This document shows positions 3,165 to 27,281 of a DNA stretch of 64,000 nucleotides, in pieces. The first letter of the stretch is position 1. Each line of letters opens with the position of its first letter. The notes beneath the pieces were generated by a model, which searched no databases, had not been told where the DNA came from, and saw only the letters and a program-made list of their open reading frames with translations. Source of the stretch: an uncultured cyanobacterium (GTDB taxonomy: Bacteria > Cyanobacteriota > Cyanobacteriia > Cyanobacteriales > Nostocaceae); assembly GCA_903848645.1 (NCBI GenBank), contig CAINGU010000059.1:55038-119037 (forward strand). The letters run 5' to 3'. The translations under genes and the position numbers were made by a program.

Positions 3165-3611
3165 TCACCCATTGGTAAATAAAATGGGAGTATCAATAAT
3201 CTTCAACTGAATTAAAAGTACAATTAGTAATGTATATATAGTTGAAGAAATGAGACTGTTAAATAACTCTTTTTTGAGATTACGCTCTTGATTTTCTTTT
3301 TGCAACATATCTACTGATCCAAACTGCATCAACAGTATACCTAGAATATTTGATAGCCAGTAGCCAAGAATAGTACAAGGAAAAAGCAATTTAGGCGATA
3401 ATAAACTACATAAATACCCAAAAAAGTAAGCAATGGGTAGGTTAAATAATAAGTCATTCCACCAACATAGAGGAGAAAGCAAGTATCCCAACACTAACAA
3501 GAATCCACCTCTGAGTTTCTTCCAAATGTTCATGCTTGGCTGTGCTAAAGAGATTTGTGTGTTTTCGCTATTGATACTGACTTTTGGACTTTCTGCTTGG
3601 ATGTTGGTCAT
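3165..3611 (-). CDS. Hypothetical membrane protein
   Basis: 148-aa ORF with several hydrophobic segments and an LSPLCWWNDL motif. Co-directional with the upstream tauE-DUF1634 genes. Confidence 0.75.
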   Translation of the reverse strand: MTNIQAESPKVSINSENTQISLAQPSMNIWKKLRGGFLLVLGYLLSPLCWWNDLLFNLPIAYFFGYLCSLLSPKLLFPCTILGYWLSNILGILLMQFGSVDMLQKENQERNLKKELFNSLISSTIYTLLIVLLIQLKIIDTPILFTNG

Positions 3612-3704
3612 AAAACTACACTAATTCTATCGTCTTAGTGTAGTTTAACTTAAGAAGTGAGAAAATGTCCAACATTGAGCAATAGTCATGAGTTGTGGAA
3701 AATA

Positions 3705-4262
3705 TTAGTAATATGCGCCAAGTAGACTATAGGTTAGACTAGCAAGCACTAATGATGTAATGACGACATAGATAAAATTTCGCTGTAAAAGAAAAGTGCA
3801 GAAAGAAATGATCACCCGCAAAATGGGGATAGCAATTAGTATTAACAGCCCTAACTGAATAATTCCCCTTCTGCTACCTGCAAAAACAGCATTCACTACA
3901 CCTATGGGGGAGTGAAACTCAGATGGTGTGCCTATAAAGACTTGATATTCCGCTGGCTCAGAGCCATGATGAATTAAATATAGTATACCCCCGAATAATA
4001 CTATAGAACTAGCGATTAAAACTCCATACTTTAGGAGGTTACTGAGTAAATATTCTAATTGTTTTTCATTTGCTGATTTTGTGAGTTTTTGATGACTAAA
4101 ATTTTCATCATCATGATTTACATTTGCTGCATGATGAAGATGATGTTTTTCTAACTCTTGAATATCACAATCTCGCTCCTCTAATTCAAAAGTGAAAGCT
4201 CCAATTTCTCTTTCTATCTGTGTTGTGCAAGTCCAGCGAAAACCAGAATTTAATTTATACAT
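3705..4262 (-). CDS. DUF1634-family membrane protein with His-rich N-terminal extension
   Basis: C-terminal LLKYGVLIAS...IIQLGLLILIAIPILRV is typical of DUF1634. It starts 2 nt after the tauE stop, the usual TauE-DUF1634 pairing. Confidence 0.85.
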   Translation of the reverse strand: MYKLNSGFRWTCTTQIEREIGAFTFELEERDCDIQELEKHHLHHAANVNHDDENFSHQKLTKSANEKQLEYLLSNLLKYGVLIASSIVLFGGILYLIHHGSEPAEYQVFIGTPSEFHSPIGVVNAVFAGSRRGIIQLGLLILIAIPILRVIISFCTFLLQRNFIYVVITSLVLASLTYSLLGAYY

Positions 4263-4264
4263 AA

Positions 4265-5101
4265 TTACAGCCCTCCTATTAGACTGTTATAGACCATTTT
4301 TAATGCCATTACTACCAATACAAAGCTGAAGATAATTCTTAAAATTTGGGTTTTAGCACCAATTAAAATTCTCGCTCCTAAAAAAGCACCTGGTAACACT
4401 CCCAACATCACCGGCATAGATAAACCTGGATCTATGTATCCCTGGGTTAAATAAACACCTGCTGAGGCTGCGGCTGTGACACCAATCATAAAATTGCTGG
4501 TGGTAGTAGAAACTTTAAAAGGGAGACGCATGGCTTGGTCCATAGCCAATACCTTGAATGCTCCCGAACCAATTCCTAATAAACCAGAAAGCACTCCTGC
4601 TACCAGCATAATACTAAAACCAGCAGGTAAGGCATGAACTTGGTAAGGGATTACACCGTCACCAGTAGGGTAAGTACCATTAAGCTGGAGATATTCTGCT
4701 AAGGGGTCTGGTGGAGAAATTTCTGTTTGTTCTGGTCTGGGGCGTTGAGACAGGTATGCTGAATAAATTAGCACAATAGCCAAAATTAAGGAAAGTATTT
4801 TTACGGTTACATGAGTGGCAATGAGAGCGCCAATCAAAGCTCCAATGGTGGTGGCTACCTCCAGAAACATCCCCAAGCGCAGATTAGCGTAGCCTTTTTT
4901 AATATACGTAGAGGCTGAACCTAATGATGTAGCAATCACTGATACTAATGATGCTCCAACGGCATAGCGAATATCAACACCAAAGACGGAAGTTAATAAC
5001 GGAACTATGACGACTCCACCACCTAACCCAGTTAATGCTCCGACTAACCCGGCACTAAATGATCCCAACCAAACCAGTAAAGAAAATGCTAGTATGCTCA
5101 A
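4265..5101 (-). CDS. TauE/SafE (TSUP) family permease
   Basis: Repeated GALTGLGGG and SGLLGIGSG motifs, KVSTTTSNFMIG, about 8 TM segments. Confidence 0.92.
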   Translation of the reverse strand: MSILAFSLLVWLGSFSAGLVGALTGLGGGVVIVPLLTSVFGVDIRYAVGASLVSVIATSLGSASTYIKKGYANLRLGMFLEVATTIGALIGALIATHVTVKILSLILAIVLIYSAYLSQRPRPEQTEISPPDPLAEYLQLNGTYPTGDGVIPYQVHALPAGFSIMLVAGVLSGLLGIGSGAFKVLAMDQAMRLPFKVSTTTSNFMIGVTAAASAGVYLTQGYIDPGLSMPVMLGVLPGAFLGARILIGAKTQILRIIFSFVLVVMALKMVYNSLIGGL

Positions 5102-5180
5102 TTTGAATTCCTCTTTTTTTAGTCTATATTTATGATGCCTAGATAATTTTTGTCAGCAGGATGTAAATAGAAAACTTCAT

Positions 5181-5819
5181 TTATCTATGCAGAAGATTGA
5201 AGACACTAAAACTATGACTATCGAGGAAGATAAAAGTACCTAATCCGATTAAGATAAAGGGCATAAAACGATTTCCATATTTAGTAAAGATATCAGCGAT
5301 CGCTTGATTGTGAGTTAACTTATGTGCTACATAACACAACACCCCCACCAATGAAAAGAAAACACCCAAAATTACTAATAGACTTTGCCAATTACTGCTG
5401 GCAAATATCGGCACATAAATACTAATGTTATCCGTTCCATTGGCAAATGTGACAGCCGCAACACTATAAGTTTGCAAATTGAAAAATCTCGCTATTAGCG
5501 ATTCCTGAGAAACTTTTGTTTCTGTCTTTGCGTCCTCTAATTCATCTGTTTCTCGATTCATTAAACTCTTGATGCCAATGATAATTGGGACTAAGCCAAA
5601 TAAACCAATCCAGGGACGGGGTAAAATTAATCCGCCGAAAAAACCAGGCAAACTAGCCAAAATCAAAGCCGTAAAACCTAAATATTGACCAATAATAATA
5701 TGCCAGCGGCGAAACTTAGCATCCACCTGAGAGAAAAACAAAGTCAGGATGACTAAATCATCAATATTTGTGGCACTAAAAGCCATTGCTCCGGTACTAA
5801 TTGCAGTTACTACACTCAT
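5181..5819 (-). CDS. cadD: CadD-family (cadmium resistance transporter-like) membrane protein, paralog 1
   Basis: FSATNIDDL, GQYLGF and ANGTDNISIYVP motifs. Probable start is ATG at 5819. Confidence 0.88.
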   Translation of the reverse strand: MSVVTAISTGAMAFSATNIDDLVILTLFFSQVDAKFRRWHIIIGQYLGFTALILASLPGFFGGLILPRPWIGLFGLVPIIIGIKSLMNRETDELEDAKTETKVSQESLIARFFNLQTYSVAAVTFANGTDNISIYVPIFASSNWQSLLVILGVFFSLVGVLCYVAHKLTHNQAIADIFTKYGNRFMPFILIGLGTFIFLDSHSFSVFNLLHR

Positions 5820-5913
5820 AACGATTTTAGATTTTGAATTTTCGACTATCAAAAGATATTGAGTAAGGATTAATGTTGATCCTTCCCAATTACCAATTAC
5901 CTATTTCCAACCC

Positions 5914-7368
5914 TTAATAATTATTTCTTTCTGCGAATCGGGCATGAATATCATCAACTCTTTGGCGAATTCCTGCTACTAAATGGGGAGAACGCTGTTT
6001 TTTGATAAAGAACCAACCGCAAGTAACAGAAAGATACAACAAGAACAAGTAAGGAAAGGTATTATAAGGAGCTTCCGGAATGGGAAATAGGCTACTACCA
6101 GGAATCCCCACACTACCTAAAACTGGGATCATCATAAAGGCTACAGCTAAGACGGCAAATACAATATCTATGGCACGAAGTTTGCTGATTTTGTATAAAT
6201 AGACTGGAGCAGCAACGGAAATCAGAATATAAACAGTTAAAAATCCATAACTACAAATAGCCCCCAAATAGCCCATACAATCGAATAGTTTGATGTGAAA
6301 GAAGGACATCATTGCGGGGATTAAAAATGTCAATAGCGAACACATCGTGACGGCAATATGAGGTGTTCTATTGGCTGCGTGGGCGTTACCTAAAGAGGCA
6401 TGAAACAAACCATGACGAGCCATTAAAAAAGCTACTCTAGCCGCAGGATTGATACTACCAAGAATGCAAGCAAAGAAACTAAACAACGCTCCTAACGCTA
6501 CCAATTCTCCCAAAAAACCCACTCCTGCTTGTCGGGAAAGGAAACCCAAAGGTTCTTCGGTGTCTTTAATTGAGATTCCTGTACCTTGAAAACCCAGAAT
6601 TTCTATATAGGTGGTGGAAATAAAAAATAGCCCTGCAAGGATAACACTACCCATAACGGCTCTAGGTATGGTGCGTAATGGCTTTTTAGCTTCATCACCC
6701 AAGCTAGTCGCACTTTCAAAGCCAGAAAAACCAAACATTACTAATACAAGTCCTGTGGCTACACTACCAGGAGTAACACCAGAAAGGGTGATTTGAGACA
6801 TATCGACAGCAAAGCCTTTGTGCGCCCAAATGATGATACATAAGATACTTATCAACACGAGGGAAGCACCTTCTAACCAAAGCATAGCTACAGCCGAAAG
6901 TTGGATATCTTTGTAAGCTGCATACCAGGAAATCCCTGCACCAATGGCTAACAGTGTGATGCTAGAAGGATGAATACCCAAATGACCAATTAGCATTCCA
7001 CTAAAATTAGCAAATCCGCACAGAACGGACATTCCTGTAAATAAATAAGCCAGCACTAAACTCCAACCGCAAACTACTCCTGCTGTTGGTCCTAAGCCTT
7101 GGGTAATGTAGGAATAGAGAGAACCAGGAGACGCGGAACGACTAGCAAATTGGTTAATGTTAATGCTGACTAACATTAGTCCAATCAACCCAATCACAAA
7201 ACTTAGCCAAGTTCCATTTCCTGAAAGTGCCACAATTAAACCGATATTAGATGCTGGTATGGTTGTGGGGGCAATTACAGCAAATGATTGGGCTAATACT
7301 TCCGAAAAAGATAGGCAATTTGACCTTAATCCATGAATACTTTGATGGGAAGATATTTCTTTGTTCAT
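5914..7368 (-). CDS. APC-superfamily amino acid/amine permease
   Basis: About 12 TM segments. Motifs SPGSLYSY and FSGFESATSLGDEAKKPLRTIPRA. Confidence 0.92.
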   Translation of the reverse strand: MNKEISSHQSIHGLRSNCLSFSEVLAQSFAVIAPTTIPASNIGLIVALSGNGTWLSFVIGLIGLMLVSININQFASRSASPGSLYSYITQGLGPTAGVVCGWSLVLAYLFTGMSVLCGFANFSGMLIGHLGIHPSSITLLAIGAGISWYAAYKDIQLSAVAMLWLEGASLVLISILCIIIWAHKGFAVDMSQITLSGVTPGSVATGLVLVMFGFSGFESATSLGDEAKKPLRTIPRAVMGSVILAGLFFISTTYIEILGFQGTGISIKDTEEPLGFLSRQAGVGFLGELVALGALFSFFACILGSINPAARVAFLMARHGLFHASLGNAHAANRTPHIAVTMCSLLTFLIPAMMSFFHIKLFDCMGYLGAICSYGFLTVYILISVAAPVYLYKISKLRAIDIVFAVLAVAFMMIPVLGSVGIPGSSLFPIPEAPYNTFPYLFLLYLSVTCGWFFIKKQRSPHLVAGIRQRVDDIHARFAERNNY

Positions 7369-8897: not shown

Positions 8898-9132
8898 TCA
8901 ACTCATTTTTCATTAACCTAGACTTTTACAAGATGACGTAAAACCTAGATGTGTAGGGGTCAAGTAAAAGCTAAACCCATACCTATGGAATCAAATGATT
9001 AAGCCATGTTGAGTATATCGTCGTCCAGACAGGAGAAATAATTGGCTGCGGAGTCGTAAAAATCAGGAAATCCTCACTAAAACAACTTTATAGATACTGG
9101 TACTAGACATTTTATTATTTATAAGTTTATAA

Positions 9133-9148
9133 TACAGTAAGTTGATAG
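9133..9148 (+). promoter_or_regulatory. Candidate Rrf2 operator, site B
   Basis: TACAGTAAGTTGATAG, 13/16 identical to the site at the Rrf2 start (12249-12264). Confidence 0.55.
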
Positions 9149-9181
9149 AGATGCCGTAGTTTTTATCAAGAATGGCAGAAA

Positions 9182-9292: not shown

Positions 9293-9468
9293 GGTTGTGA
9301 TTACAACTTGGTATCAAAAATTACACTTTAAAAGTAATAAAAGTTTACTTACAAGATTTATAAATAGTCATCTTGAACAAACTTAGACGGCGATTTTTTG
9401 TATTCATAAAATTAAGTCTATCCAAACCTATCTTCTTCATTTTTCAACTAACTTACATTAATACGAGT

Positions 9469-10266
9469 ATGGACTACTTATTACTACCAGGTTTCAGCTT
9501 TTTTATTGGCATCATTGTGGGTTTAACAGGTATAGGTGGTGCATCTTTGATCACTCCCATGTTGATTTTTGTTTTTCAAGTCCCACCTTCTATTGCTATC
9601 AGTTCTGATGTGGTTGCAGCCACATTAATGAAAGTAGTAGGGGGAGTGAAACACTGGCAACAGAAAACTCTTGATTTAGAAATAGTTAAATGGCTATCAA
9701 TGGGTAGTGTTTCTGGTTCTTTATTGGGTGTAGGAGTTTTATCCCAACTCAGACAAAGTGGAGAACATAACCTCGATAACCTCTTGCTGCGGTTACTGGG
9801 AGTCATGATTCTGATAGTGACATTGACAGCATTAATACAAATGTTGTTGATGACATTTTTCCCGAAAGTTAATTTACCCGAACTGCCAAAATTAAATTTA
9901 AAAACCAATCAAGGACGTTTTCTGACTTTACTTATTGGCGCAATTTTAGGCTTTTGTGTGGGGATGACAAGCGTTTCATCAGGCTCTATGTTTGCCTTAG
10001 CTTTGATCGCATTTTTCCAGTTAGATGCCCGAAAATTGGTGGGTACAGATATTACTCAAGCCGCCATTTTACTAATATTTACGTCTCTGGGACATCTAAC
10101 TTTAGGAACTGTTGATTGGAGTCTAGTCATACCTATTTGGATAGGTTCTGTTCCTGGAGTTCTTATTGGTGCTAAACTTTGCGACATTACTCCTCAACGT
10201 CCACTAAGATTTATTATCTATAGTATCTTAATGATGGTAAGTTGGAAATTAGTCGCACAAGCGTAA
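9469..10266 (+). CDS. TauE/SafE (TSUP) family permease, second subfamily
   Basis: VGLTGIGGASLITP, GMTSVSSGS and LVGTDI motifs. Probable start is ATG at 9469. Confidence 0.92.
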   Translation: MDYLLLPGFSFFIGIIVGLTGIGGASLITPMLIFVFQVPPSIAISSDVVAATLMKVVGGVKHWQQKTLDLEIVKWLSMGSVSGSLLGVGVLSQLRQSGEHNLDNLLLRLLGVMILIVTLTALIQMLLMTFFPKVNLPELPKLNLKTNQGRFLTLLIGAILGFCVGMTSVSSGSMFALALIAFFQLDARKLVGTDITQAAILLIFTSLGHLTLGTVDWSLVIPIWIGSVPGVLIGAKLCDITPQRPLRFIIYSILMMVSWKLVAQA

Positions 10267-10289: not shown

Positions 10290-10937
10290 TTAATTTCCCT
10301 GCCCAAATAATAGATTAAATGTCCCTCGTTCATACATAATAAATAGCCCCAAACCAATTAACACAAAAGGGACAATAGCCTGACCATAGCGACTTAAAAT
10401 ATAACCAATGTTAGCTTGACGATTTAATAAATCAGCGATACCGCACCAAATCCCTACCATGCCAAAAAATACTACCAAAATTATTCCTAAACCAACAATA
10501 TCTTGACCTGCAAATAGGGGGATGTAAATACTAATATTATCACCCCCATTGGCAACTGTTACAGCCGCAACTTTATAAGTGTTTGGATGTAAAATGCTTG
10601 ATAAAAAAGAAGATTGAGGGCTATTCTGTTCGGTATTCACTGTCTGAACTTCTCCACTTTCTTCTGCACGATTTACTAATTGCTTGATGCCAATAGCAAT
10701 TGGTAATAATCCTAGTAATCCAATCCATTTTTCTTCTATGACTAAGCCACCAAAGAACCCTGGTAAGCTGAGGATAATAATGGCTGTAAAGCCAATATAT
10801 TGACCGATAAAAATATGTCTACGGCGAAAATTTCTATCTATTTGCGAGAAAAATATTAACAGAATCATGATGTCGTCAATATTAGTAGCGGCAAAGGCAA
10901 TTATGCCTTCTGTAAAAGCAGTAGCAAGCCTATTCAT
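10290..10937 (-). CDS. cadD: CadD-family membrane protein, paralog 2
   Basis: FAATNIDDI, GQYIGF and ANGGDNISIYIP motifs. Confidence 0.88.
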   Translation of the reverse strand: MNRLATAFTEGIIAFAATNIDDIMILLIFFSQIDRNFRRRHIFIGQYIGFTAIIILSLPGFFGGLVIEEKWIGLLGLLPIAIGIKQLVNRAEESGEVQTVNTEQNSPQSSFLSSILHPNTYKVAAVTVANGGDNISIYIPLFAGQDIVGLGIILVVFFGMVGIWCGIADLLNRQANIGYILSRYGQAIVPFVLIGLGLFIMYERGTFNLLFGQGN

Positions 10938-11043
10938 GGTAAACTTGGATAATATACTCTTTAGTAAGAAGTCAGGAGAGGAATTTAAAAAGAAGTCATA
11001 ATAATTGTAACTCTAAATTTAAATTTTATTAAACTTATCTAAA

Positions 11044-11721
11044 ATGAACAATTTATTGACAGCAATTATCACAGGAGTAGTTGCTTTCATTGCCACTAAT
11101 ATTGATGATATTGTGATTTTGTTGGTGTTTTTTTCGCAAGTAAATGAGAATTTTCGCCCTTGGCAAATTGTTGTTGGTCAATATTTAGGTTTTACTATTC
11201 TCGTCATCTTGAGTTTACCTGGTTTATTTGGTGGGCTGATTTTGCCTCAATCATGGATTGGTTTACTAGGCTTAATTCCTATCGCTATTGGTATGAGTAG
11301 CTTAGTGAATAGAGAAACAGAACAATTAGCTGATGTTCCAGAAGATATAATACCATCTGCTACATCAACAAACAATTATTTTTTAACACCACAAATTTAC
11401 ACTGTGGCAGCAATAACTGTGGCGAATGGTAGTGATAATATTAGTATTTATATACCGTTATTTTCTAGCACTCAATTAGAGAGTTTTTTAATAATTATTG
11501 GGTTATTTTTTCTCCTTTTAGCAGTTTGGTGCTATATAGCATATCAGTTAACCCATCAGCAAAAAATAGCTGATTTTTTTACCAATTATGGTAATTATCT
11601 TGTGCCGTTTGTGCTGATGGGTTTAGGGGTTGTAATTGTATGGAAAAGTAAAGCTTTAAATCCGTTAAAACTCCTTGGTAGTTGTATTTGTTTGTTGGTT
11701 TTAGTAAAAAAGGACAATTGA
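11044..11721 (+). CDS. cadD: CadD-family membrane protein, paralog 3
   Basis: FIATNIDDI, GQYLGF and ANGSDNISIYIP motifs. Divergent from paralog 2. Confidence 0.88.
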   Translation: MNNLLTAIITGVVAFIATNIDDIVILLVFFSQVNENFRPWQIVVGQYLGFTILVILSLPGLFGGLILPQSWIGLLGLIPIAIGMSSLVNRETEQLADVPEDIIPSATSTNNYFLTPQIYTVAAITVANGSDNISIYIPLFSSTQLESFLIIIGLFFLLLAVWCYIAYQLTHQQKIADFFTNYGNYLVPFVLMGLGVVIVWKSKALNPLKLLGSCICLLVLVKKDN

Positions 11722-11775
11722 CAAATGAGCAATGATATTTTTTGCTATTTCCATCACCATACTTATTGATAACCA

Positions 11776-12258
11776 CTAAATGTAATACATGGGATTATAT
11801 TGGGCGCGAATCTCTCTTTCTTGACATAAATCTTGGAGTGTATAGCCGCGCAAAACCTCAATCGAAGCCGCGTTAGCTTGCTGCCAGATTTCCAGAACTA
11901 AAATTTTTTCTATGGTTGGAGTCTCGGAGCTTTCTTTCTCTTTCCGTTCACCTTCCACCAAGGTAACAATTTCTAGCAAAGTAATTTGCCAAGGCTCACG
12001 CATTAATACGAAACCTCCTTTTGAGCCACGTTGACTCTGTACTAAACCGGCACGTCGCAGTTGAGTGAGAATTTGTTCAAGATACCGTTCCGGGACGGGT
12101 TGCTTGGCGGCAATCTCGTTCATGGTTAGGGGAACTTTTTTATCGTGATGTCTGGCTAGTTCTAACAGTGCTAGGAGCGCATATTCCACTTTCGCCGAAA
12201 GATCCAGAAGAGCATAGTTTTGACTATTCAAATCTGTATTCAGAATACTACTGTACAT
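11776..12258 (-). CDS. Rrf2-family transcriptional regulator (CymR-like)
   Basis: KVEYALLALLEL, YLEQIL and SQRGSKGGFVL wHTH motifs. Only one Cys; C-terminus PMYYI. The true start may be TTG at 12231. Confidence 0.93.
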   Translation of the reverse strand: MYSSILNTDLNSQNYALLDLSAKVEYALLALLELARHHDKKVPLTMNEIAAKQPVPERYLEQILTQLRRAGLVQSQRGSKGGFVLMREPWQITLLEIVTLVEGERKEKESSETPTIEKILVLEIWQQANAASIEVLRGYTLQDLCQEREIRAQYNPMYYI

Positions 12259-12264
12259 TGATAG
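12249..12264 (+). promoter_or_regulatory. Candidate Rrf2 autoregulatory operator, site A
   Basis: TACTGTACATTGATAG overlaps or immediately precedes the Rrf2 start codon. Confidence 0.6.
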
Positions 12265-12525
12265 ATTTATCGGCTTTTAACCGCAATTAGTTTTATTTTA
12301 AGTGTTAAATGTGATATTATCACACTTGCACTAAATAAAGTATCATAACTCTATCGGATTTAAGGTGATTATCTGCAAAATTCTCAAAATTGCTTAACAC
12401 TCACTTGTCGCACTTCATTTTACAAGAGAAATACAAGTATTAAAATTTACTATATTTTATCTTGTATATACTTGAATGTCATTGGTAATTAATCTGCACA
12501 ACATCCCTGGCTTTTGCTTGTGAAA

Positions 12526-12570
12526 ACCAATTACCAATTACCAATTACCTATTACCTATTACCTATTACC
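12526..12570. repeat. STRR heptamer array (ACCAATT/ACCTATT)
   Basis: About six tandem heptamers; they also encode the last codons (GNR-stop) of the CHASE2 kinase. Confidence 0.85.
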
Positions 12571-14762
12571 AAAGATTTCAAATCATGAAGCACTGCTGTA
12601 GCTGATTGATAGCGATCGCTAAAATGGTAACAAACCATCTTATCTAAAATTGCAGCTAATTTTGTATTAACACTGATCTGATTTTGCCAAACAAAGTTAC
12701 CTGTATGGGGATTAATTTTGAGTTCTTGGGGAGGGATTCCTGTAATTGCTTGAATACCCATCATTCCCAAAGCATAAATATCACTACACAAGCGGGGATG
12801 ACCAGCAAATTGTTCCGGTGGTGCATAACCTTTTGTGCCAATAGCAATTGTTACTGCTGCTATAGATTCATTGATTGATGGCTGGATAAATTTAACTGCA
12901 CCAAAGTCTATTAATACCAATTTATTATTATGAATACATCTCATGATATTTGTCGGTTTAATATCTCGATGAATAACATGATGTTGATGTACAAATACCA
13001 AAATTTCTAATATCTCCTGGAGCATGGAAATAACAAACTCTTCACTTTTGCCATTTTGTTCAGGAGATAATTCTTCACTTAACGTATGTCCTTGAATATA
13101 TTCTTGAACTAAATAAAATTCTTGATTGTCTTCAAAATAAGCCAGGAGTTCGGGAATACAGGGATGTTTGCCTAATGTAGCTAAGATTTCAGCTTCAGTA
13201 TAAAATAATCTGCGGGCTATTTGTAAAAATTTATCATCCTGACGAGCCGGCATTAACTGTTTGACGACACAAATAGGCTCACCTGGACGATGATGATCTT
13301 GAGCTAAATAAGTGCGGCCAAAGCCACCAGCACCAAGGGTTTGTACGATTTGATAACGGCCACCTAATAATAATCCCCCGGTTTTTAATCTAGATATAGA
13401 TGTTTCATATTTAGTAGTAGGGTGATCAGAAATAGATTGTAGTAATGTAGTTTGATTTAATAGTAAATTTAACTGAGAAATTGCTTCTTTTTGTTGTTCA
13501 ACTTGTAAAATAATCCCTTGATTTTTCTGAGTTGTGTAACCCACGATGACAAAACTACCCATGATCAAACTAATCATAGGAGGAATCAAAGGTATCCAAA
13601 TGCCTTGGAGATATAAACCAGCAGCAATTCCCAGCAAACCCATGAGCAGAAAACTAGTCATCACTAGCAACATGAAAATATGTCGCCACTGCCATGCTAA
13701 AATTGCCCCAATTAGAGACCAAACCCAAATCCAACATAATTCCAATTGATCTGGCCAGTAATAAATTAGCGATCGCCCATCTAAGACTGTACTAATAATT
13801 TGACTAGCTATTTGGGCATGAATAAACATCCCAGCTATTCTTGCTGGTTGATCTGGGAGAGAACTGTAGGGAGTATAATAACCAGGATGGACACTATAAG
13901 CAGTAGTTCCAATAATAACTAACTTATCTTTTACCCAATTGGGGTTAACTTGATCTTGGAGAACTTGTGTTAAGGTAACTTGTTGAGCCAGGTGATCAAA
14001 ATGGCGATAATTTAACAGAATTTGGTAGCCGTTAGCATCTGTATTCTGATAACCACCAGCATTTTTATCTAAGCGAGGAAATACTGTTTTGCCAATTTCT
14101 AATTCTTGATTTTCATTAAAATTATATTTAATGCCTTGTTTTTCTAAATAATTAATGGCTAATAAACTAGCAAAGGAAAACTGGGTTACACATTTATTAT
14201 CTGTATGTGTAACTTCAGAAAATAATAAACTCCGGCGCAAAACTTGATCAGTTTCATTATCAGCAAGGACATCATTAAAACCCACATTCTCCATCGGGAA
14301 GTTAGGAGGTGGGGGAACTTCTGATCTACCAATATTGCTTAATAAACAAGTGGTGAAAATATTTTCTTTTTTTGGTAAATTAATTCCTAAATTCTTTTGT
14401 TCTGGACGATAAATATTTAAACCAATTACACGGGGTTGATGAGATTTTAATTTAGCTAATAATGTATTAATAGTTTTGTCAGATAAAGGCCATTTCTCTT
14501 GTTTGAGATCCTCTTCTGTAATTGTGACTAATAAAATCCGCCCATCTGCGGGTTCTAAAGGACGCGATCGCAACATTAAATCATAAGCACCTAACTCCAA
14601 TTTTTGCAACCATTTCAGTTCTCGTACTCCCCAAACTAACCCTGTTACCCCTATACTCGTTAGAAAAATGACAATTAACCAATTATAGGCAGCAACACTA
14701 CCAAAAGAATCCTGAGTTTTGAACAACCCAGTCCTAAATTTTGCAAGAATTCCCTTAATCAC
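12552..14762 (-). CDS. CHASE2-domain Ser/Thr protein kinase
   Basis: Extracytoplasmic CHASE2 region (DGRILLVTITEEDL, GMFIHAQIASQII), 3 TM segments, and a kinase domain with GAGGFG, HRDIKPTN, DFG and GYAPPEQ. Confidence 0.95.
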   Translation of the reverse strand: MIKGILAKFRTGLFKTQDSFGSVAAYNWLIVIFLTSIGVTGLVWGVRELKWLQKLELGAYDLMLRSRPLEPADGRILLVTITEEDLKQEKWPLSDKTINTLLAKLKSHQPRVIGLNIYRPEQKNLGINLPKKENIFTTCLLSNIGRSEVPPPPNFPMENVGFNDVLADNETDQVLRRSLLFSEVTHTDNKCVTQFSFASLLAINYLEKQGIKYNFNENQELEIGKTVFPRLDKNAGGYQNTDANGYQILLNYRHFDHLAQQVTLTQVLQDQVNPNWVKDKLVIIGTTAYSVHPGYYTPYSSLPDQPARIAGMFIHAQIASQIISTVLDGRSLIYYWPDQLELCWIWVWSLIGAILAWQWRHIFMLLVMTSFLLMGLLGIAAGLYLQGIWIPLIPPMISLIMGSFVIVGYTTQKNQGIILQVEQQKEAISQLNLLLNQTTLLQSISDHPTTKYETSISRLKTGGLLLGGRYQIVQTLGAGGFGRTYLAQDHHRPGEPICVVKQLMPARQDDKFLQIARRLFYTEAEILATLGKHPCIPELLAYFEDNQEFYLVQEYIQGHTLSEELSPEQNGKSEEFVISMLQEILEILVFVHQHHVIHRDIKPTNIMRCIHNNKLVLIDFGAVKFIQPSINESIAAVTIAIGTKGYAPPEQFAGHPRLCSDIYALGMMGIQAITGIPPQELKINPHTGNFVWQNQISVNTKLAAILDKMVCYHFSDRYQSATAVLHDLKSLVIGNR

Positions 14763-14858
14763 AATATTGAGGTATAAACCTGGATATGTAGCAGGTGACA
14801 GAATTGAAAGTCCTTGATTCTGTACTTAATTTACCTGCAATATGGTACATATAGCAAT

Positions 14859-15203
14859 TTATTCTCTTGAATCTTGAATATCCGATACCGGGGTAGATAT
14901 TGATAAAGAAATCGGAGTTGAGTTTACTGCTGATTCCAACTTCGGTACTTCCCCAGGGGTGATGACAGGGGTATTCCTGAAGTAAGAAGGCAAAATCTTA
15001 TCATAGTTAGAGGCAACTGCTAACAATGCCCCTCCTAAAATATAGATGGGTAATGGGACGGAAAAACCTCGTAACCACTTAAAAAACTCCGCTAAAGCAA
15101 ACAGGACAAAAAAGCATACAAGCCAAACTTTCATAAGTTTATTTGTTCGATACGATGTTATCTTCTCACTAATTTTAGTTTTTTTGGATTGAGAATAAAT
15201 CAA
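14859..15203 (-). CDS. Hypothetical membrane protein
   Basis: 114-aa ORF with two hydrophobic segments (MKVWLVCFFVLFALAEF; LPIYILGGALLAVASNY). The start may be the internal Met. Confidence 0.75.
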   Translation of the reverse strand: MIYSQSKKTKISEKITSYRTNKLMKVWLVCFFVLFALAEFFKWLRGFSVPLPIYILGGALLAVASNYDKILPSYFRNTPVITPGEVPKLESAVNSTPISLSISTPVSDIQDSRE

Positions 15204-15228
15204 TTAAAAGTTAAAAATTACAAAAAAC

Positions 15229-17859
15229 TTATATTTCATTCCTTAAAACTTCTGTAGCTTGCTCAACAGATAGTGGACGATATAAAAGAAATCCTTGGAC
15301 ATCATCACAGTTAATTGAGCGTAAAAACTCTAACTCTGCTGGCTGTTCTACACCTTCAGCAATTAACCTCAATCCTAAAGATCGTCCCAAGGTAACTATA
15401 GCTTGGATGATATGAGCGACTCTTTCATCTTTGGTGAGTTCTTTAATAAAAGAACGATCAATTTTGAGGTTATGGAATGGTAACACCTGTAGGCGAGAAA
15501 GGGAAGAATAACCTGTGCCAAAGTCATCAATGGCCAAAAGTAACCCCATTTGTGTCAAACTCTGTAATGCAGTTGTGGTGAAATCAAGATCCGCGATAGC
15601 TGTAGTTTCTGTAATCTCTAATTCTAAAAATTCTGGTTGTAGTTGAGTTACTGTTAAAATATTGGTTAATATTTCTACTAACTTAGGTTGGCGAAACTGG
15701 TTAGGAGAGAGATTGACGGCAATGGTAATTGGTGGATATCCTGCATCTTGCCAAGCTTTATTTTGCATACAAGCCTGACGTAATGCCCATTCACCAATAG
15801 AAATAATTAAGCCACTTTCTTCCGCTAGAGGAATAAAAACATTAGGAGAAACTATCCCCATTTCTGGGTGATACCAACGCAGTAAAGCCTCCATGCCTGT
15901 AATTTTACCTGTGGCAATATTAACGCGAGGCTGATAATACAACATCAGTTCTTCCCGTTCTAAAGCATGACGTAAACTTTTTTCTAAACTTAATAGTTCG
16001 GGATTTTTTTTACTGAGAGACTCTTTATAAAATTGGTAGTTATTTCTGCCTTCGTCTTTGGCGTAATATAAAGCTGCATCTGCGTGTTGAATGAGAGTTT
16101 CGGCATCAGGACTTTGTTTATTTAAGAGAGCTATGCCAATACTGGAACTAATATAAAGTTCATGTCCGTGGACATAAAAAGCATTTTCTAAACTTTGGAG
16201 AATATTTTGAGCGATTTGGATAATGGGTTGAGTTTCCGTTATTTGTGGTAAGAAAATAGTGAATTCATCACCACCCCAACGAGCCACAATATCTCCAGGT
16301 CTAATTGCATATCTGAGTCTTTGAGCGACAATTTTTAATAAGTCATCTCCGACGGTATGCCCCAAAGTATCATTAATGATTTTAAAGCGATCCAGATCCA
16401 GGAACATAACCGCAAGACTTTCCTCTATCTGAATTGCTTTTTGTATATTGCGTTGAAGTATATCGTTGAATTGTAAACGATTAGGTAATCCAGTCAGTAA
16501 GTCGTGCATGGCCTGATAGCGAATCTTTTCCTCTACTTGCTGACGTTGACGAGCGCCACTAATGCTTGCAGACATCGTTAAAAGGCTAGATTCTTCATGT
16601 TTTGACCAATCACGTTCTGCGGTACATTCAATTAAACCCAAACAACCCCAAAACTCTGTTTCTAATCTCAGAGGTACAAGCAGTAGCGATTTGATATTAT
16701 CTCCCATGAGCAGTTCTTTCTCGACTATGGGAAATACTTTGGTACGGCCACTAATAGTTTCACCCTGGGAGAGTGTGTTATACCAGCGTTCTAGTCCAGA
16801 GGTTTGATAAGACTGATTTTGCCAATGATAGTGGCTGGTTTCCGCACCAGATTTAATCCATTCAAACCGCATACTTAAGGATATTTCTCCAGTAATAGGA
16901 TGGGGATGGTTTTGAAATAGATAAACTCGTTCTACATTGGTAGCTTCTCCTAATGCTGCTAGTGCTTTTTCAATAGCTATCTCATAGTTCATTTCTGCTA
17001 ATAAATAGTTAGCTGCTTCAGCTACCCCTTGCAATAGGCGATCACGTTGTTTTAATTCTATTTCAGCTTTTTTCTGTTCTGTAATTTCTCTAATAATAAA
17101 AGTTCTAATTAAGTCACTTTCAGGTAAATAATGCACAGATTGTTCAAAAATTTCATCACCAACTGTTACTTCCCTCACAAAGGAATTTTGGTCTTGATTC
17201 TCAACTGCTTTGAGCAATTGTGTCAAAATTGGGTGTTCCTGACCTATCAGCCTTAAGTTGGGAAATTTAGCTGCTGCTGCTGGATTCAGATATGTTATTT
17301 TTCCCTCTAAATCCATTTCAATAATAGGATTAGGAATTAGTTCTGGAAAAGATGCTAACCTGGCTAAGGCTGCATCACTAGCGATTTCAAAGTTATGATC
17401 ATGTATAATTGCTGTATCAAAAGGAGAGGCAATATTGACTCTGCCAGAAAGGAAATCTGACAAATTACCCGTTTCACAAAATTCAGCAAATATTTGCTCT
17501 GAGAGGTTAGTAATTACGTAGTATTTAGCTTGAATATTATTTTTGCCAAAGGCAATCATGTCTCCATTTTGGAGATTATGAGACAGACATTTTTGTCCAT
17601 TAACAAATAAACCGTTGGTGCTTCTTTTCCCCTGAAAGTTGCCATCAATAATCCGAAAACCGTATTGGTCAGTATTAGGAATTGTTACTCTTAATAAAAT
17701 CGCGTGTTGCCTGGATACAGACCGCGAATGCAGAATAATAGCGTTCCTTAAGTCCCTTCCTAGAGAGTAAGTTGTCTCTAGTAAGGGAAGAGTTCGCTGC
17801 CCTTGTGGATCTTGGACAACTAATAGATGGCGGATTTTTTCCCTTTCATTTCCTACCAT
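15229..17859 (-). CDS. FHA-PAS-GAF-GGDEF-EAL diguanylate cyclase/phosphodiesterase
   Basis: FHA motifs LGRD, SRQHA and STNG; PAS segment NPIIEMD..YLNPAA; a GAF domain; RPGD I-site plus GGDEF; MEALLR; DDFGTG. Confidence 0.95.
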   Translation of the reverse strand: MVGNEREKIRHLLVVQDPQGQRTLPLLETTYSLGRDLRNAIILHSRSVSRQHAILLRVTIPNTDQYGFRIIDGNFQGKRSTNGLFVNGQKCLSHNLQNGDMIAFGKNNIQAKYYVITNLSEQIFAEFCETGNLSDFLSGRVNIASPFDTAIIHDHNFEIASDAALARLASFPELIPNPIIEMDLEGKITYLNPAAAAKFPNLRLIGQEHPILTQLLKAVENQDQNSFVREVTVGDEIFEQSVHYLPESDLIRTFIIREITEQKKAEIELKQRDRLLQGVAEAANYLLAEMNYEIAIEKALAALGEATNVERVYLFQNHPHPITGEISLSMRFEWIKSGAETSHYHWQNQSYQTSGLERWYNTLSQGETISGRTKVFPIVEKELLMGDNIKSLLLVPLRLETEFWGCLGLIECTAERDWSKHEESSLLTMSASISGARQRQQVEEKIRYQAMHDLLTGLPNRLQFNDILQRNIQKAIQIEESLAVMFLDLDRFKIINDTLGHTVGDDLLKIVAQRLRYAIRPGDIVARWGGDEFTIFLPQITETQPIIQIAQNILQSLENAFYVHGHELYISSSIGIALLNKQSPDAETLIQHADAALYYAKDEGRNNYQFYKESLSKKNPELLSLEKSLRHALEREELMLYYQPRVNIATGKITGMEALLRWYHPEMGIVSPNVFIPLAEESGLIISIGEWALRQACMQNKAWQDAGYPPITIAVNLSPNQFRQPKLVEILTNILTVTQLQPEFLELEITETTAIADLDFTTTALQSLTQMGLLLAIDDFGTGYSSLSRLQVLPFHNLKIDRSFIKELTKDERVAHIIQAIVTLGRSLGLRLIAEGVEQPAELEFLRSINCDDVQGFLLYRPLSVEQATEVLRNEI

Positions 17860-24439: not shown

Positions 24440-25525
24440 TTAGCGTCGTCCACGTTGAATTTTGTCAAATATAGCACCATCAGCAAATAATTTTTTCTGG
24501 ACACCACTCCAACCGCCAAGATCACCTACAGTATAAAGTCTGGCAATATAGGGGAATTTATTTTTTACTTCTTTGGAGACAGTTGGGTCAACTGGACGGA
24601 AACCAACTTTAGCAAATTCACGCTGTGCTTCTGGAGTGAAAAGGAACTTGACGAAAGCTTCAGAAACCTCACGATTTCCATGCTTATCAACATTTTTATC
24701 CACAACTGCCACAGGTGCATCTATAGAAATATTGACTGGAGGAACTATGTAAGAAGTATCTGTTTTGCCTTGCTGTGCAGCTAAAATCACTTCGTTTTCA
24801 TAGTTTAGTAATACATCACCTTGACCTTTTTTGTAAAAAGCATCACTTGATTCCCTGGCATCTTTAGGTAGGGCTACTACATTTTTAAACACATCTGTTA
24901 CAAACTTCAACGCCTGGGTTTCATTTCCGCCATTTTTAACGACTGAACCCCATAAAGCGAGAAAATTCCATTTAGCCCCACCAGATGTCTTGGGATTTGC
25001 AGTCACAATCTTAACATCAGGCTTTGTTAAATCAGCCCAATTCTTGATCTTTTTCGGATTACCAGCGCGAGTTTCCAGTGCAACTACTGAACGGGTAACA
25101 ATTGCGTTATTTGGAGATTCCTTTTCCCAACCTGGTTGAATCAAGCCAGCTTGTTCAATTTTTTTAATGTCTCCAGCCAATGCTAAAGCTACCACATCTG
25201 CGCCCAAACCATCAATAACAGCGCGGGTTTGCGAGCCAGAACCACCGTAACTCTCTTTAATCACCACTTCTTGACCTTTTTCTCTTTTCCATTTTGCCAC
25301 AAAATCGGGAATGATTTTAGCGTAAGCGGCCTTGGTGACTGCGTAAGAAACTAAAGTAATTTCAACTTTTTTGCCACTTTGACTCATTAGTTGTGTTTTT
25401 TGGGCTGTACCTGCAAATACAGGCATAATAGTGCTTATACTTAAACCTGTGGCTAAGAATAAAGCAGGAAATAACGGCTTTGTTGTTTGTAGGAATTTTG
25501 CAGGGTTTGAAGAATTATCTGTCAT
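24440..25525 (-). CDS. sbp: Sulfate/thiosulfate-binding periplasmic protein, paralog without a lipobox
   Basis: SYGGSGSQTRAV, NPKTSGGAKWNFL and NYENE motifs. Signal peptide ends V-F-A with no Cys. Confidence 0.93.
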   Translation of the reverse strand: MTDNSSNPAKFLQTTKPLFPALFLATGLSISTIMPVFAGTAQKTQLMSQSGKKVEITLVSYAVTKAAYAKIIPDFVAKWKREKGQEVVIKESYGGSGSQTRAVIDGLGADVVALALAGDIKKIEQAGLIQPGWEKESPNNAIVTRSVVALETRAGNPKKIKNWADLTKPDVKIVTANPKTSGGAKWNFLALWGSVVKNGGNETQALKFVTDVFKNVVALPKDARESSDAFYKKGQGDVLLNYENEVILAAQQGKTDTSYIVPPVNISIDAPVAVVDKNVDKHGNREVSEAFVKFLFTPEAQREFAKVGFRPVDPTVSKEVKNKFPYIARLYTVGDLGGWSGVQKKLFADGAIFDKIQRGRR

Positions 25526-25566
25526 GGGATGTCCTTAAATTGGTTTGAATATAATCTACGAAAACT

Positions 25567-25582
25567 CTGTCGAGATACAGTA
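25567..25582 (-). promoter_or_regulatory. Candidate Rrf2 operator, site C
   Basis: Minus strand reads TACTGTATCTCGACAG, 12/16 identical to site A, 42 nt upstream of the sbp start. Confidence 0.5.
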
Positions 25583-26012
25583 TTTACTGTCTAGAAAAAG
25601 AGCGTACCAGATGTAATAAATAAAATCAATAGTTTTTGCACTTAAAAACAACTATTTTCCTATCGAGTATTGTATGTATTAAATATTTTATTTATTTTTG
25701 TAATTATTTAATTGCCTATAAAGTTTATATAGTAGATATTTTGACAAATTAAATTCTATATTTATTTTCTAGTGTTTATTCAAATAAAGTATTAAAAATA
25801 GCAAGTTAAATAAGTAATTTTTCTTTTTTCACCTCCATAAAGATCATCGAAAATTGATACTTATCATTTAAAGGCATTGTAATTTCTCTTGAAACTGGTA
25901 AAATCACCATATTCCCTATCGTCAATATGCAGTTTTTACTGGTGTTGATAACCAGATACCTGCAATAATGGTATTTTTATTAATTAACCGTAGTTTCACG
26001 GGAGGATAAAAA

Positions 26013-27125: not shown

Positions 27126-27138
27126 TTAACAAGCCCTG

Positions 27139-27244
27139 GTGATTATAAATCACGGCTATACAAACAAAGTCCGCCTGCGCGGACTAGGGAAATTTAGAAC
27201 CCACGCAGGTGGGTTTTGCTTGTATAGCCGTGACTTATAGTCGC
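27139..27244. repeat. Multi-stem structured dispersed repeat, copy 1
   Basis: Outer stem CACGGCTATAC/GTATAGCCGTG encloses hairpins GTCCGCCTGCGCGGAC and AACCCACGCAGGTGGGTT. Homologous copies at 40838-40954 and 57143-57257. Confidence 0.85.
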
Positions 27245-27281
27245 CTGAATTTCTAAATAACAACTAAAAACCAACTAAATT

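What the first reader, a model, noticed from the sequence alone, without database searches (positions are those of the whole stretch)
11776..12258. Rrf2 regulator without Fe-S ligands, ending in a CysK-docking-type tail (-NPMYYI)
Seen: only one Cys (position 145), so the IscR/NsrR Cys triad is absent, and the protein ends MYYI. Established: Firmicute CymR ends in YMFYI, and CymR and serine acetyltransferase dock a C-terminal Ile into the active site of cysteine synthase CysK, which lets CymR sense O-acetylserine/cysteine status. Inference: this is a cyanobacterial CymR-like sensor. It is probably a cluster-specific paralog, since I recall the common cyanobacterial Rrf2 also ending in MYYI.
Basis: partly seen in the sequence, partly recalled or inferred. 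Interest (0 to 1): 0.66.

Follow-up and report, generated by a model that had tools for sequence, protein, structure and literature searches.

The report
Cyanobacterial CymR-like cysteine regulator, orphaned
This gene encodes a small DNA-binding regulator whose conserved tail (…MYYI) matches the peptide that Firmicute CymR inserts into cysteine synthase, and in most related cyanobacteria it sits between the two cysteine-synthesis genes, so it is probably an undescribed cyanobacterial sensor of cysteine/sulfur status, although this genome has deleted the neighbouring cysteine synthase gene.

Summary
Window 11776-12258 (minus strand) encodes a 160-aa Rrf2 protein with one Cys (C145), no IscR/NsrR Cys triad, and the ending NPMYYI.

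The CymR-like reading is well supported by comparative genomics but has not been tested biochemically.
- In 80 Nostocales species the ortholog lies directly upstream of cysK in 65 and divergent from cysE in 71. It usually also has a CadD-like gene pair and a TauE gene downstream.
- Nearly all orthologs end in MYYI (117/120).
- A second, phylum-wide 145-aa paralog also ends in MYYI (120/120). It precedes a cysK in all four lineages checked.
- S. aureus CymR's YMFYI pentapeptide is crystallographically shown to fill the CysK active site.

The window locus is a decayed version. The cysK gene was deleted, leaving an 8-codon stub, and cysE is absent. The regulator itself is under strong purifying selection (dN/dS 0.05-0.11).

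It does not reach NCBI's CymR model cutoff (95 vs 195 bits), so it is CymR-like in mechanism rather than a member of that equivalog.

I found no paper describing this in cyanobacteria. Verdict: new member of a known kind, moderately high interest.

The parts
11776..12258 (-). rrf2A: Rrf2-family winged-helix regulator. It is 160 aa from the ATG at 12258, or 151 aa from the conserved TTG at 12231.
   Evidence: ORF and translation. Pfam and NCBIfam Rrf2 matches. AF2 model with pLDDT 82 and an Rrf2 fold, with top PDB matches T. potens IscR and B. subtilis CymR. dN/dS against orthologs is 0.05-0.11.
11779..11796 (-). Codons for the C-terminal hexapeptide N155-P-M-Y-Y-I160, the proposed CysK-docking tail.
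   Evidence: Sequence. MYYI is conserved in 117/120 homologs. The tail is predicted coil, with residues 158-160 at pLDDT <50. The S. aureus CymR YMFYI peptide binds the CysK active site.
11731..11760 (-). Remnant of the rrf2-cysK spacer and the first ~8 codons of a deleted cysK (..M-E-I-A-K-N-I..). Homology to cysK-bearing relatives ends near 11730.
   Evidence: blastn shows about 1.3 kb present in L001, L002 and L007 (the cysK gene) and missing from the window. Alignment and translation of the stub. The junction is confirmed by an independent contig.
12349..12369 (-). Degenerate copy of conserved block B2 (consensus ATCTACGGTAAGTCGATAGAG, an imperfect ATCTA-N11-TAGAT inverted repeat). It lies just upstream of a -10-like hexamer and is a candidate operator.
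   Evidence: Block found in an alignment of 80 upstream regions. The PWM gives 98 hits in the loci against 1 in shuffled sequence, including sites upstream of NIL-domain, TauE and sulfate-binding-protein genes. The window copy scores only 9.5 bits.
12302..12327 (-). Conserved block B3. In the window it contains a perfect palindrome TGTGATAATATCACA (12310-12324), extendable to a 10-1-10 repeat. It is a candidate autoregulatory operator or other regulator site.
   Evidence: The block is found only upstream of rrf2A genes (72 hits against 0 in shuffled sequence).
12264..12286 (-). Conserved block B4 just upstream of the start codon. It is a short hairpin-capable inverted repeat (consensus TCGCA-N5-TGCGA; window CGGTT-AAA-AGCCG) and a possible 5'-UTR stem-loop.
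   Evidence: Both arms differ between lineages while keeping their complementarity.
11044..11721 (+). CadD-family (LysE-superfamily) membrane protein, convergent with rrf2A. It is a conserved member of the gene island.
   Evidence: Pfam Cad, E=1.6e-29. NCBIfam cad score is below cutoff. A Cad pair lies downstream of rrf2A in 55/80 loci.
10290..10937 (-). Second CadD-family membrane protein, divergent from the first.
   Evidence: Pfam Cad, E=8e-33. Synteny.
9373..10266 (+). TauE/SafE (TSUP) family anion transporter, a conserved island member.
   Evidence: Pfam TauE, E=3.2e-41. Present in 46/80 orthologous loci.
9130..9150 (+). Weak B2-like site, 223 bp upstream of the TauE gene.
   Evidence: Exact match to GTAAGTYGATAGAG. 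PWM score 9.6 bits. B2 sites upstream of TauE also occur in L002 and L072.
3625..3645 (-). Best B2-like site in the window (AACTACACTAAGACGATAGAA). It lies between a DUF1634/TauE/Cad operon and a 148-aa ORF of unknown function.
   Evidence: PWM score 19.6 bits. Shuffled windows give a mean of 0.22 hits at 12 bits or more.

Best explanation
The gene encodes a cluster-free Rrf2 repressor of sulfur and cysteine genes that most likely works like Firmicute CymR.

Proposed mechanism:
- The dimer binds operators in the promoters of its own operon and of sulfur-related transporter genes.
- Its flexible C-terminal peptide (…PMYYI-COOH) inserts into the active site of cysteine synthase CysK.
- The CysK-regulator complex is the tight DNA-binding form.
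- When sulfide is short, O-acetylserine accumulates and competes for the CysK active site. The tail is released and repression is relieved.

In most Nostocales the regulator is co-transcribed with its own cysK and shares a control region with a divergent cysE. The CysE protein's own …GAGI tail would compete for the same site. In this genome the linked cysK was deleted and cysE is absent, so the regulator would have to use a CysK encoded elsewhere. The likely candidate is the cysK that follows the second, phylum-wide rrf2 paralog.

Shown: the sequence features, tail conservation, fold, gene linkage, the deletion, and purifying selection.
Inferred: CysK binding, OAS sensitivity, operator identity, and the direction of regulation.
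For: - Rrf2 domain with no Cys triad and the ending PMYYI.
- The S. aureus CymR YMFYI pentapeptide binds the CysK active site at 25-34 nM. M, the aromatic residue, Y and I are each required.
- In B. subtilis, CysK stabilises CymR on DNA about 7-fold, both proteins are needed for DNA binding, and OAS is part of the signal.
- CymR is the best specific NCBIfam model (94.8 bits against IscR 72.5) and the alignment runs to the last residue. The same holds for the paralog family.
- In 80 Nostocales species, cysK lies directly downstream in 65 and cysE is divergent upstream in 71. Both pass NCBIfam equivalog cutoffs: cysK 468 against 351, cysE 251 against 211.
- All 71 CysE proteins end LDGAGI, a C-terminal Ile of the kind used for CysK docking.
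- The tail is conserved in 117/120 sequences of this family and 120/120 of the paralog family.
- The paralog is followed by cysK in Nostoc, Chroococcidiopsis, Sphaerospermopsis and Leptolyngbyaceae.
- Among 60 informative metagenomic loci of more distant Rrf2 relatives, a CymR-type tail goes with an adjacent cysK in 7/12, against 7/48 for other endings (p=0.004).
- The tail is predicted to be unstructured. Solved CymR and IscR chains are 15-21 residues shorter than their constructs.
- dN/dS is 0.05-0.11, including against other cysK-less loci.
Against: - No binding or expression data exist for any cyanobacterial member.
- The protein fails the CymR equivalog cutoff (94.8 against 195).
- Position -5 is Pro, or Ile/Leu in the paralog, instead of Tyr. 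In S. aureus, Y6A lowers affinity from 34 nM to 10-20 uM.
- The same tail occurs on many Rrf2 proteins that do carry an Fe-S Cys triad, so it is not specific to CymR proper.
- In the window itself cysK, cysE and the Crp-type regulator are absent from all 64 kb.
- The candidate B2 operator at the gene's own promoter is degenerate in the window.
- Which regulator binds B2 or B3 is unknown.
Confidence: 0.6

Rival explanations
1. It is a sulfur/cysteine-island regulator, but the MYYI tail does not dock into CysK. The tail would be an ancestral feature of a large Rrf2 clade with another role, such as a dimer contact, DNA-bound conformation or a different partner. The effector would then be sensed in some other way.
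For: M[YFW][YHF]I endings are carried by 91 of the top 150 50%-identity representatives, including proteins with the Fe-S Cys triad. T. potens IscR (PDB 4cic) also ends MYYI. The -5 Tyr needed for nanomolar binding in S. aureus is missing.
Against: Triad-bearing proteins with the tail are also followed by cysK, at gaps of 12-15 bp. Tail presence correlates with cysK adjacency. The tail is predicted to be disordered rather than packed. The four residues that are kept are the ones shown to contact CysK.
Confidence: 0.2
2. It is an IscR-type or thiol-based redox regulator. It would act as an apo-IscR-like factor or sense oxidation or persulfidation through its single Cys145, independently of CysK.
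For: The best PDB sequence and fold match is T. potens IscR. A review lists the Synechocystis Rrf2 Slr0846 as 'IscR, uncharacterized'. The TLQDLC cysteine is present in about 80% of both cyanobacterial families. From my own knowledge, S. aureus CymR senses oxidation through a Cys.
Against: There is no Cys triad. The IscR models score far below cutoff, 72.5 against 207.6. The Cys is replaced by Y, S, A, T or H in 15-20% of members, and 13/120 family members have no Cys at all. No isc or suf genes lie next to it in the window or in any of the 80 loci.
Confidence: 0.07
3. It is a metal (cadmium) resistance regulator that controls the adjacent CadD-family transporter genes.
For: In the window its nearest conserved neighbours are two 'cadmium resistance transporter' family genes.
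Against: The Cad genes score below the NCBIfam cad cutoff. Across species the island also holds cysE, cysK, NIL-domain, TauE and sulfate ABC transporter genes. The protein has no metal-binding Cys or His cluster.
Confidence: 0.05
4. In this genome the gene is a functionless relic left behind after cysK and cysE were lost from the locus.
For: cysK was deleted, leaving a stub. cysE and the Crp regulator are absent. The B2 block at the gene's own promoter has diverged.
Against: The ORF and the tail are intact. dN/dS is 0.05-0.11, including comparisons with three other lineages that also lack the linked cysK. The same cysK-less layout, rrf2-Cad-Cad-TauE, is stably kept in Sphaerospermopsis and Dolichospermum.
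Confidence: 0.05

Closest known systems
CymR of Bacillus subtilis / Staphylococcus aureus (Rrf2 family; NCBIfam NF047409; PDB 2y75, 3t8r)
   Same: Rrf2 fold (TM 0.82-0.84 on the target). No Fe-S Cys triad. C-terminal hydrophobic/aromatic peptide ending in Ile (YMFYI against PMYYI). Functional tie to cysteine synthase and cysteine genes. Best-scoring specific model.
   Different: About 37% identity and only 94.8 bits against a cutoff of 195. Pro instead of Tyr at -5. A disordered N-terminal extension of 9-17 residues. The cyanobacterial genes are normally in an operon with cysK and divergent from cysE. From my own knowledge, B. subtilis cymR sits with yrvO-trmU. There are two paralogs per genome. 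CysK binding is untested.
Thermincola potens IscR (PDB 4cic) and other Gram-positive-type IscR
   Same: Best PDB sequence match (E=1.3e-19), and it also ends GYMYYI. Same fold.
   Different: IscR binds a cluster through three Cys, which the window protein lacks. The IscR models score below cutoff. There is no isc/suf neighbourhood.
Common cyanobacterial 145-aa Rrf2 (family B; e.g. Nostoc sp. PCC 7524 AFY46371.1; probably the Slr0846 type)
   Same: About 48-50% identity. The same MYYI ending, with a fixed 15 residues after the TLQDLC motif. Also immediately upstream of a cysK that is 80% identical to the island cysK.
   Different: No N-terminal extension. Three semi-conserved Cys (5, 83, 130). 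A different conserved context, OprB-rrf2-cysK-dnaJ. Found across cyanobacterial orders rather than mainly in Nostocales. Equating it with Slr0846 rests on memory and was not tested.
Cysteine synthase complex (serine acetyltransferase CysE docking its C-terminal Ile into CysK), and CdiA-CT/CysK
   Same: The proposed interaction uses the same site and the same anchor, a C-terminal Ile carboxylate. The island's own CysE proteins all end LDGAGI.
   Different: The partner here is a transcription factor, not an enzyme or a toxin. The residues upstream of the Ile are aromatic, as in CymR.

Membership tests
Rrf2 superfamily (Pfam PF02082 / TIGR00738) | Match to the family model above the curated cutoff | tested here: met
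   PF02082 scores 119.6 bits against 30. TIGR00738 scores 112.6 against 73.3.
Rrf2 superfamily (Pfam PF02082 / TIGR00738) | Winged helix-turn-helix followed by a long dimerisation helix | tested here: met
   The AF2 model (pLDDT 82) matches CymR, IscR, RsrR and NsrR structures at E down to 1e-10.
CymR (NCBIfam NF047409 equivalog) | Score at or above the curated equivalog cutoff (195 bits) | tested here: not met
   94.8 bits, the best of the specific Rrf2 models but about half the cutoff.
CymR (functional definition) | No Fe-S cluster-ligating Cys triad | tested here: met
   There is a single Cys, at 145, and none in the 90-110 region. 13/120 family members have no Cys at all.
CymR (functional definition) | C-terminal pentapeptide of the YMFYI type with a terminal Ile | tested here: inconclusive
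   The ending is PMYYI. M, Y and I are identical and F>Y is conservative. The -5 Tyr that gives nanomolar affinity in S. aureus is Pro.
CymR (functional definition) | Physical complex with CysK that is released by O-acetylserine | not testable with these tools
   This needs a pull-down, SPR or ITC.
CymR (functional definition) | Association with, or control of, cysteine and sulfur genes | tested here: met
   By gene linkage only. Orthologs lie between cysE (71/80) and cysK (65/80), with NIL-domain, sulfate ABC transporter, TauE and Cad genes nearby. In the window only the Cad and TauE genes and a cysK stub remain.
IscR (TIGR02010 / NF008110) | Three Cys (plus His) cluster ligands after the wing | tested here: not met
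   These are absent. Compare the invariant C92, C101 and C107 in triad-bearing relatives.
IscR (TIGR02010 / NF008110) | Score at or above the cutoff; isc or suf neighbourhood | tested here: not met
   72.5 against 207.6 bits, and 52.6 against 275. No isc or suf genes in the window neighbourhood or in the 80 loci.
NsrR / RirA | Score at or above the cutoff | tested here: not met
   NsrR scores 34.7 against 182. RirA scores 53.8 against 193.

The most novel reading that the evidence does not exclude
The M-[YF]-[YH]-I tail may mark a cross-phylum class of CysK-tethered Rrf2 regulators. This class would go well beyond Firmicute CymR: both cyanobacterial paralogs, and many Fe-S-cluster-bearing IscR-like proteins that are co-transcribed with cysK. 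Occupancy of the cysteine synthase active site would then be a general input to sulfur and Fe-S gene control. In the Nostocales sulfur island, three proteins encoded side by side would compete for one CysK active site: CysE (…GAGI), the Rrf2 (…MYYI) and a Crp-family regulator (…WYYEI).
Probability: 0.3. Interest if true: 0.8.

Novelty: new member of a known kind. Interest (0 to 1): 0.62.

Why it matters
How cyanobacteria sense sulfur and cysteine status at the level of transcription is poorly understood. The only known regulator-CysK complex, CymR, is described in Firmicutes.

This analysis shows three things:
- A conserved rrf2-cysK module, with cysE, exists in cyanobacteria.
- It carries an invariant tail of the kind that plugs into CysK.
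- It comes in two paralogous versions.

Together these give a concrete, directly testable candidate for that sensor, in organisms that matter for global primary production and for bloom formation. The work also suggests that enzyme-tethered transcription control through CysK is much more widespread among Rrf2 proteins than is currently annotated. The window itself shows that the regulator is retained under selection after its cis-linked enzyme gene is lost.

Tried and rejected
- Rfam scan of 3-30 kb at permissive E-values: no riboswitch or leader near the gene, only a sub-threshold CRISPR-DR hit inside a transporter gene.
- Palindrome TGTGATNNTATCACA: a single site in the window, with no enrichment.
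- Core GTAAGTYGATAGAG with 3 mismatches or fewer: 11 hits against 8.5 expected, so the window alone gives no statistical support for a regulon. Support comes only from the cross-species PWM.
- Inverted repeat AATTCCCA-N19/20-TGGGAATT: confined to the cysE-rrf2 intergenic region of other species and absent from the window's promoter, so it is not a regulon-wide operator. I recall a resemblance to the B. subtilis CymR box (..GGAATT..) but could not verify it, because Even et al. 2006 is not held. I do not use it.
- Midorikawa et al. 2009 on Slr0846 is not held, so the link between family B and Slr0846 rests on memory.
- Literature searches for a cyanobacterial CymR or Rrf2-CysK link found nothing relevant.
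A 5-sequence one worked.
- Context look-ups for one tail-bearing protein and one tail-less control (P0190, P0225) were uninformative because the contigs ended. P0121 was likewise uninformative.
- No RNA-seq run holds this sequence. It comes from a pond metagenome, so the transcription start and expression could not be checked.
- Cys145 as an essential ligand or sensor: rejected as a requirement because of its variable conservation.

Full report
OBSERVATION

The ORF at window 11776-12258 lies on the minus strand and encodes 160 aa. The translation has exactly one Cys, C145 in the motif TLQDLC, and ends …AQYNPMYYI. It is an Rrf2-family protein:
- Pfam PF02082 matches with E=1.3e-34 over residues 20-146.
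- TIGR00738 scores 112.6 bits against a cutoff of 73.3.
- The region that carries three invariant Cys in cluster-binding relatives (about 92/101/107) has none here.

An AlphaFold2 model built on 22 homologs has mean pLDDT 82. It shows the winged helix-turn-helix and the long dimerisation helix. The N-terminal 14 residues are disordered. Residues 155-160 form a coil tail, with residues 158-160 at pLDDT <50. Foldseek's best PDB matches are T. potens IscR (4cic) and B. subtilis CymR (2y75), followed by S. aureus CymR and E. coli IscR.

The ATG at 12258 is not conserved in most Nostoc orthologs. A conserved TTG at codon 10 (12231) is an alternative start that would give 151 aa.

The stretch is real. 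One contig from an independent assembly of a pond-metagenome run covers 10800-12554 at depth about 37 with no differences.

IS THE TAIL MORE THAN CHANCE?

- Of the 120 closest database homologs, all Nostocales-type, 117 end in MYYI.
- All 83 copies in 80 species loci plus the window end in [SNG]PMYYI or ELMYYI.
- Among the top 150 representatives at 50% identity, 91 end in M[YFW][YHF]I. These include proteins that carry the Fe-S Cys triad.

So the tail is strongly conserved, but it is a feature of a large Rrf2 clade and not only of CymR.

WHAT IS ESTABLISHED FOR CymR

- The S. aureus CymR C-terminal decapeptide EDLDGYMFYI binds CysK with Kd 25 nM.
- The pentapeptide YMFYI alone is sufficient (34 nM).
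- Crystal structures show the terminal Ile carboxylate in the substrate site.
- Ala substitution of F8 or I10 abolishes binding. Substitution of Y6, M7 or Y9 lowers affinity to 10-20 uM.
- In B. subtilis, CysK stabilises the CymR-DNA complex about 7-fold, both proteins are needed for DNA binding, and OAS is part of the signal.

The window protein's PMYYI keeps M, an aromatic residue, Y and I. It has Pro in place of the -5 Tyr.

GENOMIC CONTEXT: THE DECISIVE EVIDENCE

A scan of one genome per species returned 80 Nostocales loci. I clustered all ORFs in these loci. The canonical order is:

NIL-domain gene(s) > Crp-family regulator < cysE < rrf2 > cysK > Cad < Cad > TauE <

Counts across the 80 loci:
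- cysE lies divergent upstream in 71.
- cysK lies directly downstream on the same strand in 65.
- The CadD-like pair is present in 55.
- TauE is present in 46.

The flanking genes pass NCBI's equivalog models: cysK 468 bits against a cutoff of 351, and cysE 251 against 211. All 71 CysE proteins end LDGAGI. That is the C-terminal Ile used for docking into CysK in cysteine synthase complexes.

Sulfate-binding-protein genes and cysT/W genes lie next to the island in some species. In the window, their orthologs (70-86% identity) sit at 24.4-29.0 kb.

THE WINDOW LOCUS IS A DECAYED COPY

No cysK, cysE or island-type Crp gene exists anywhere in the 64 kb. I compared the window with the closest relatives: Dolichospermum LEGE 00240, Anabaena azotica and a Nostocaceae MAG. 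About 1.3 kb holding cysK is missing from the window. The rrf2-cysK spacer and the first ~8 codons of cysK (M-E-I-A-K-N-I) remain at about 11731-11760.

The cysK-less layout rrf2-Cad-Cad-TauE is also found in Sphaerospermopsis torques-reginae, and rrf2A likewise lacks a linked cysK in some Dolichospermum/Anabaena and Cuspidothrix loci. The regulator is nevertheless under strong purifying selection. dN/dS is 0.05-0.11, including comparisons with other cysK-less lineages.

TWO PARALOGS

A profile search with more distant homologs revealed a second family of 145 aa, here called family B. It occurs in Chroococcidiopsis, Leptolyngbyaceae, Coleofasciculus, Phormidium and many Nostocales.
- All 120 listed members end [DN][ILF]MYYI.
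- In all four lineages examined, the gene is followed at 17-260 bp by a gene that passes the cysK equivalog. The conserved order is OprB > rrf2 > cysK > dnaJ.
- That CysK is 80% identical to the island CysK.
- Both paralogs are encoded on the same 5.35-Mb Sphaerospermopsis kisseleviana chromosome: BAZ81561.1 and BAZ80488.1.

Both families score best against the CymR model (91-107 bits) and 15-23 bits lower against IscR. All scores are below cutoff.

The TLQDLC cysteine is present in about 80% of both families and is replaced by Y, S, A, T or H in most of the rest (the motif was not found in a few, mostly truncated, sequences). 13 of 120 members of the window's family have no Cys at all. This argues against an obligatory Cys-based sensor.

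IS THE TAIL TIED TO CysK BEYOND CYANOBACTERIA?

- Two triad-bearing, tail-bearing representatives with informative contigs are each followed by cysK, at gaps of 12 and 15 bp.
- In 60 informative metagenomic loci of triad-type relatives, a CymR-type ending goes with an adjacent cysK in 7/12. Other endings go with it in 7/48. Fisher p=0.004, not corrected for phylogeny.

This weakens the rival reading that the tail is a generic structural element unrelated to CysK.

CONTROL REGION

An alignment of 80 upstream regions shows several conserved blocks.
- B2 (ATCTACGGTAAGTCGATAGAG) is an imperfect ATCTA-N11-TAGAT repeat just upstream of a TATAGT -10-like hexamer. It gives 98 PWM hits in the loci against 1 in shuffled sequence. 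About 20 of these lie outside the rrf2 promoter: upstream of NIL-domain genes (11), TauE (2), a sulfate-binding-protein gene (1), and others.
- B3 (AAGTGGGATGCTATCACATTCCACAC) occurs only at rrf2 promoters. In the window it is a perfect palindrome, TGTGATAATATCACA (12310-12324).
- B4 is a hairpin-capable repeat near the start codon whose two arms change together between lineages.

In the window, B2-like sites lie at 3625-3645 (19.6 bits), 9130-9150 upstream of TauE (9.6 bits), and 12349-12369 at the gene's own promoter (9.5 bits). The window alone gives only marginal statistics, and which regulator binds which block cannot be decided from sequence.

MECHANISM AND RIVALS

Best explanation (confidence about 0.6): this is a CymR-like repressor of sulfur and cysteine genes. 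Its DNA binding is coupled to the occupancy of the CysK active site through the MYYI tail, with OAS and the CysE tail as competitors. In this genome it would act with a CysK encoded in trans.

Rivals:
- A sulfur-island regulator whose tail has another role (0.2).
- An IscR-like or thiol redox sensor (0.07).
- A metal regulator of the CadD-like genes (0.05).
- A decaying relic (0.05).

COMPARISON AND NOVELTY

The protein works like CymR on the available evidence, but it is not a member of NCBI's CymR equivalog because the cutoff is not met. I found no paper describing a cyanobacterial CymR-type regulator or an Rrf2-CysK link in cyanobacteria. A review lists Slr0846 merely as "IscR, uncharacterized".

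I rate the finding a new member of a known kind. Its wider implication is that CysK-tethered Rrf2 regulators may be widespread, including forms that carry an Fe-S cluster.

Noticed in passing
L009:8238-8828 (-) and 54 other orthologous loci; not present in the window: A Crp-family regulator sits next to cysE in 55/80 Nostocales loci. It carries a 9-residue extension beyond its HTH domain that ends IWYYEI (50/55; the others end IWHYEI or IWYYQI). This is another aromatic tail ending in Ile, so it is a possible second CysK-docking regulator in the same island. Its best NCBIfam model is PtrA, far below cutoff.
   Followed up: partly
L097:5001-6380, L100:152-1591, and metagenome loci L104-L183: Rrf2 proteins that do carry the Fe-S Cys triad and end in MYYI, MYHI or IYYI are often directly followed by cysK (7/12, against 7/48 for other endings). 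Another common ending in this set, especially in gut metagenomes, is D/N-Y-[SVC]-I, and it is rarely next to cysK.
   Followed up: partly
window 24440-28977: A sulfate-type ABC transporter cluster: two SBP_bac_11 binding-protein genes, divergently arranged, plus two permease genes. They are 70-86% identical to the sbp and cysT/W genes that lie next to the rrf2-cys island in other Nostoc genomes. In this genome the island's parts are scattered.
   Followed up: partly
window 3165-7368: A second set of island-type genes on the minus strand: amino-acid permease, CadD-like, TauE and DUF1634 genes, then a 148-aa ORF with no family match. The best B2-like site in the window (3625-3645) lies before that ORF.
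   Followed up: partly
window 12525-12570: Heptamer tandem repeats (GGTAATT/GGTAATA type) lie between the rrf2 promoter and the CHASE2 Ser/Thr kinase gene. Word depth there jumps from about 37 to 3600-4900, and the independent contigs break there. The link between rrf2 and the kinase gene therefore crosses a repeat and could be an assembly join.
   Followed up: partly
window 12264-12286 (-): A short inverted repeat just upstream of the start codon. Its two arms differ between lineages but stay complementary (TCGCA..TGCGA against CGGTT..AGCCG), as expected for a 5'-UTR RNA hairpin rather than a protein site.
   Followed up: no
window 40192-40425 (-): A NIL-domain coding stretch, 50-55% identical to the NIL-domain genes that flank the Crp-cysE-rrf2 island in other Nostocales.
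   Followed up: no
window 27163-27186 (+): A sub-threshold Rfam match to CRISPR-DR28 (32.9 bits against a gathering score of 35) between the sbp gene and the first permease gene. It is a single copy, so probably chance.
   Followed up: no
L066:1316-1750 (-), L072:14380-14856 (+): Two Nostocales loci carry a second rrf2 copy within 10 kb of the first. In L072 each copy is followed by a Cad gene, which points to local duplication of the module.
   Followed up: no
window 12552-17859 (-): Upstream neighbours are a CHASE2-Ser/Thr kinase and an FHA-GAF-GGDEF-EAL protein. Neither is conserved next to rrf2 in any of the 80 loci.
   Followed up: yes
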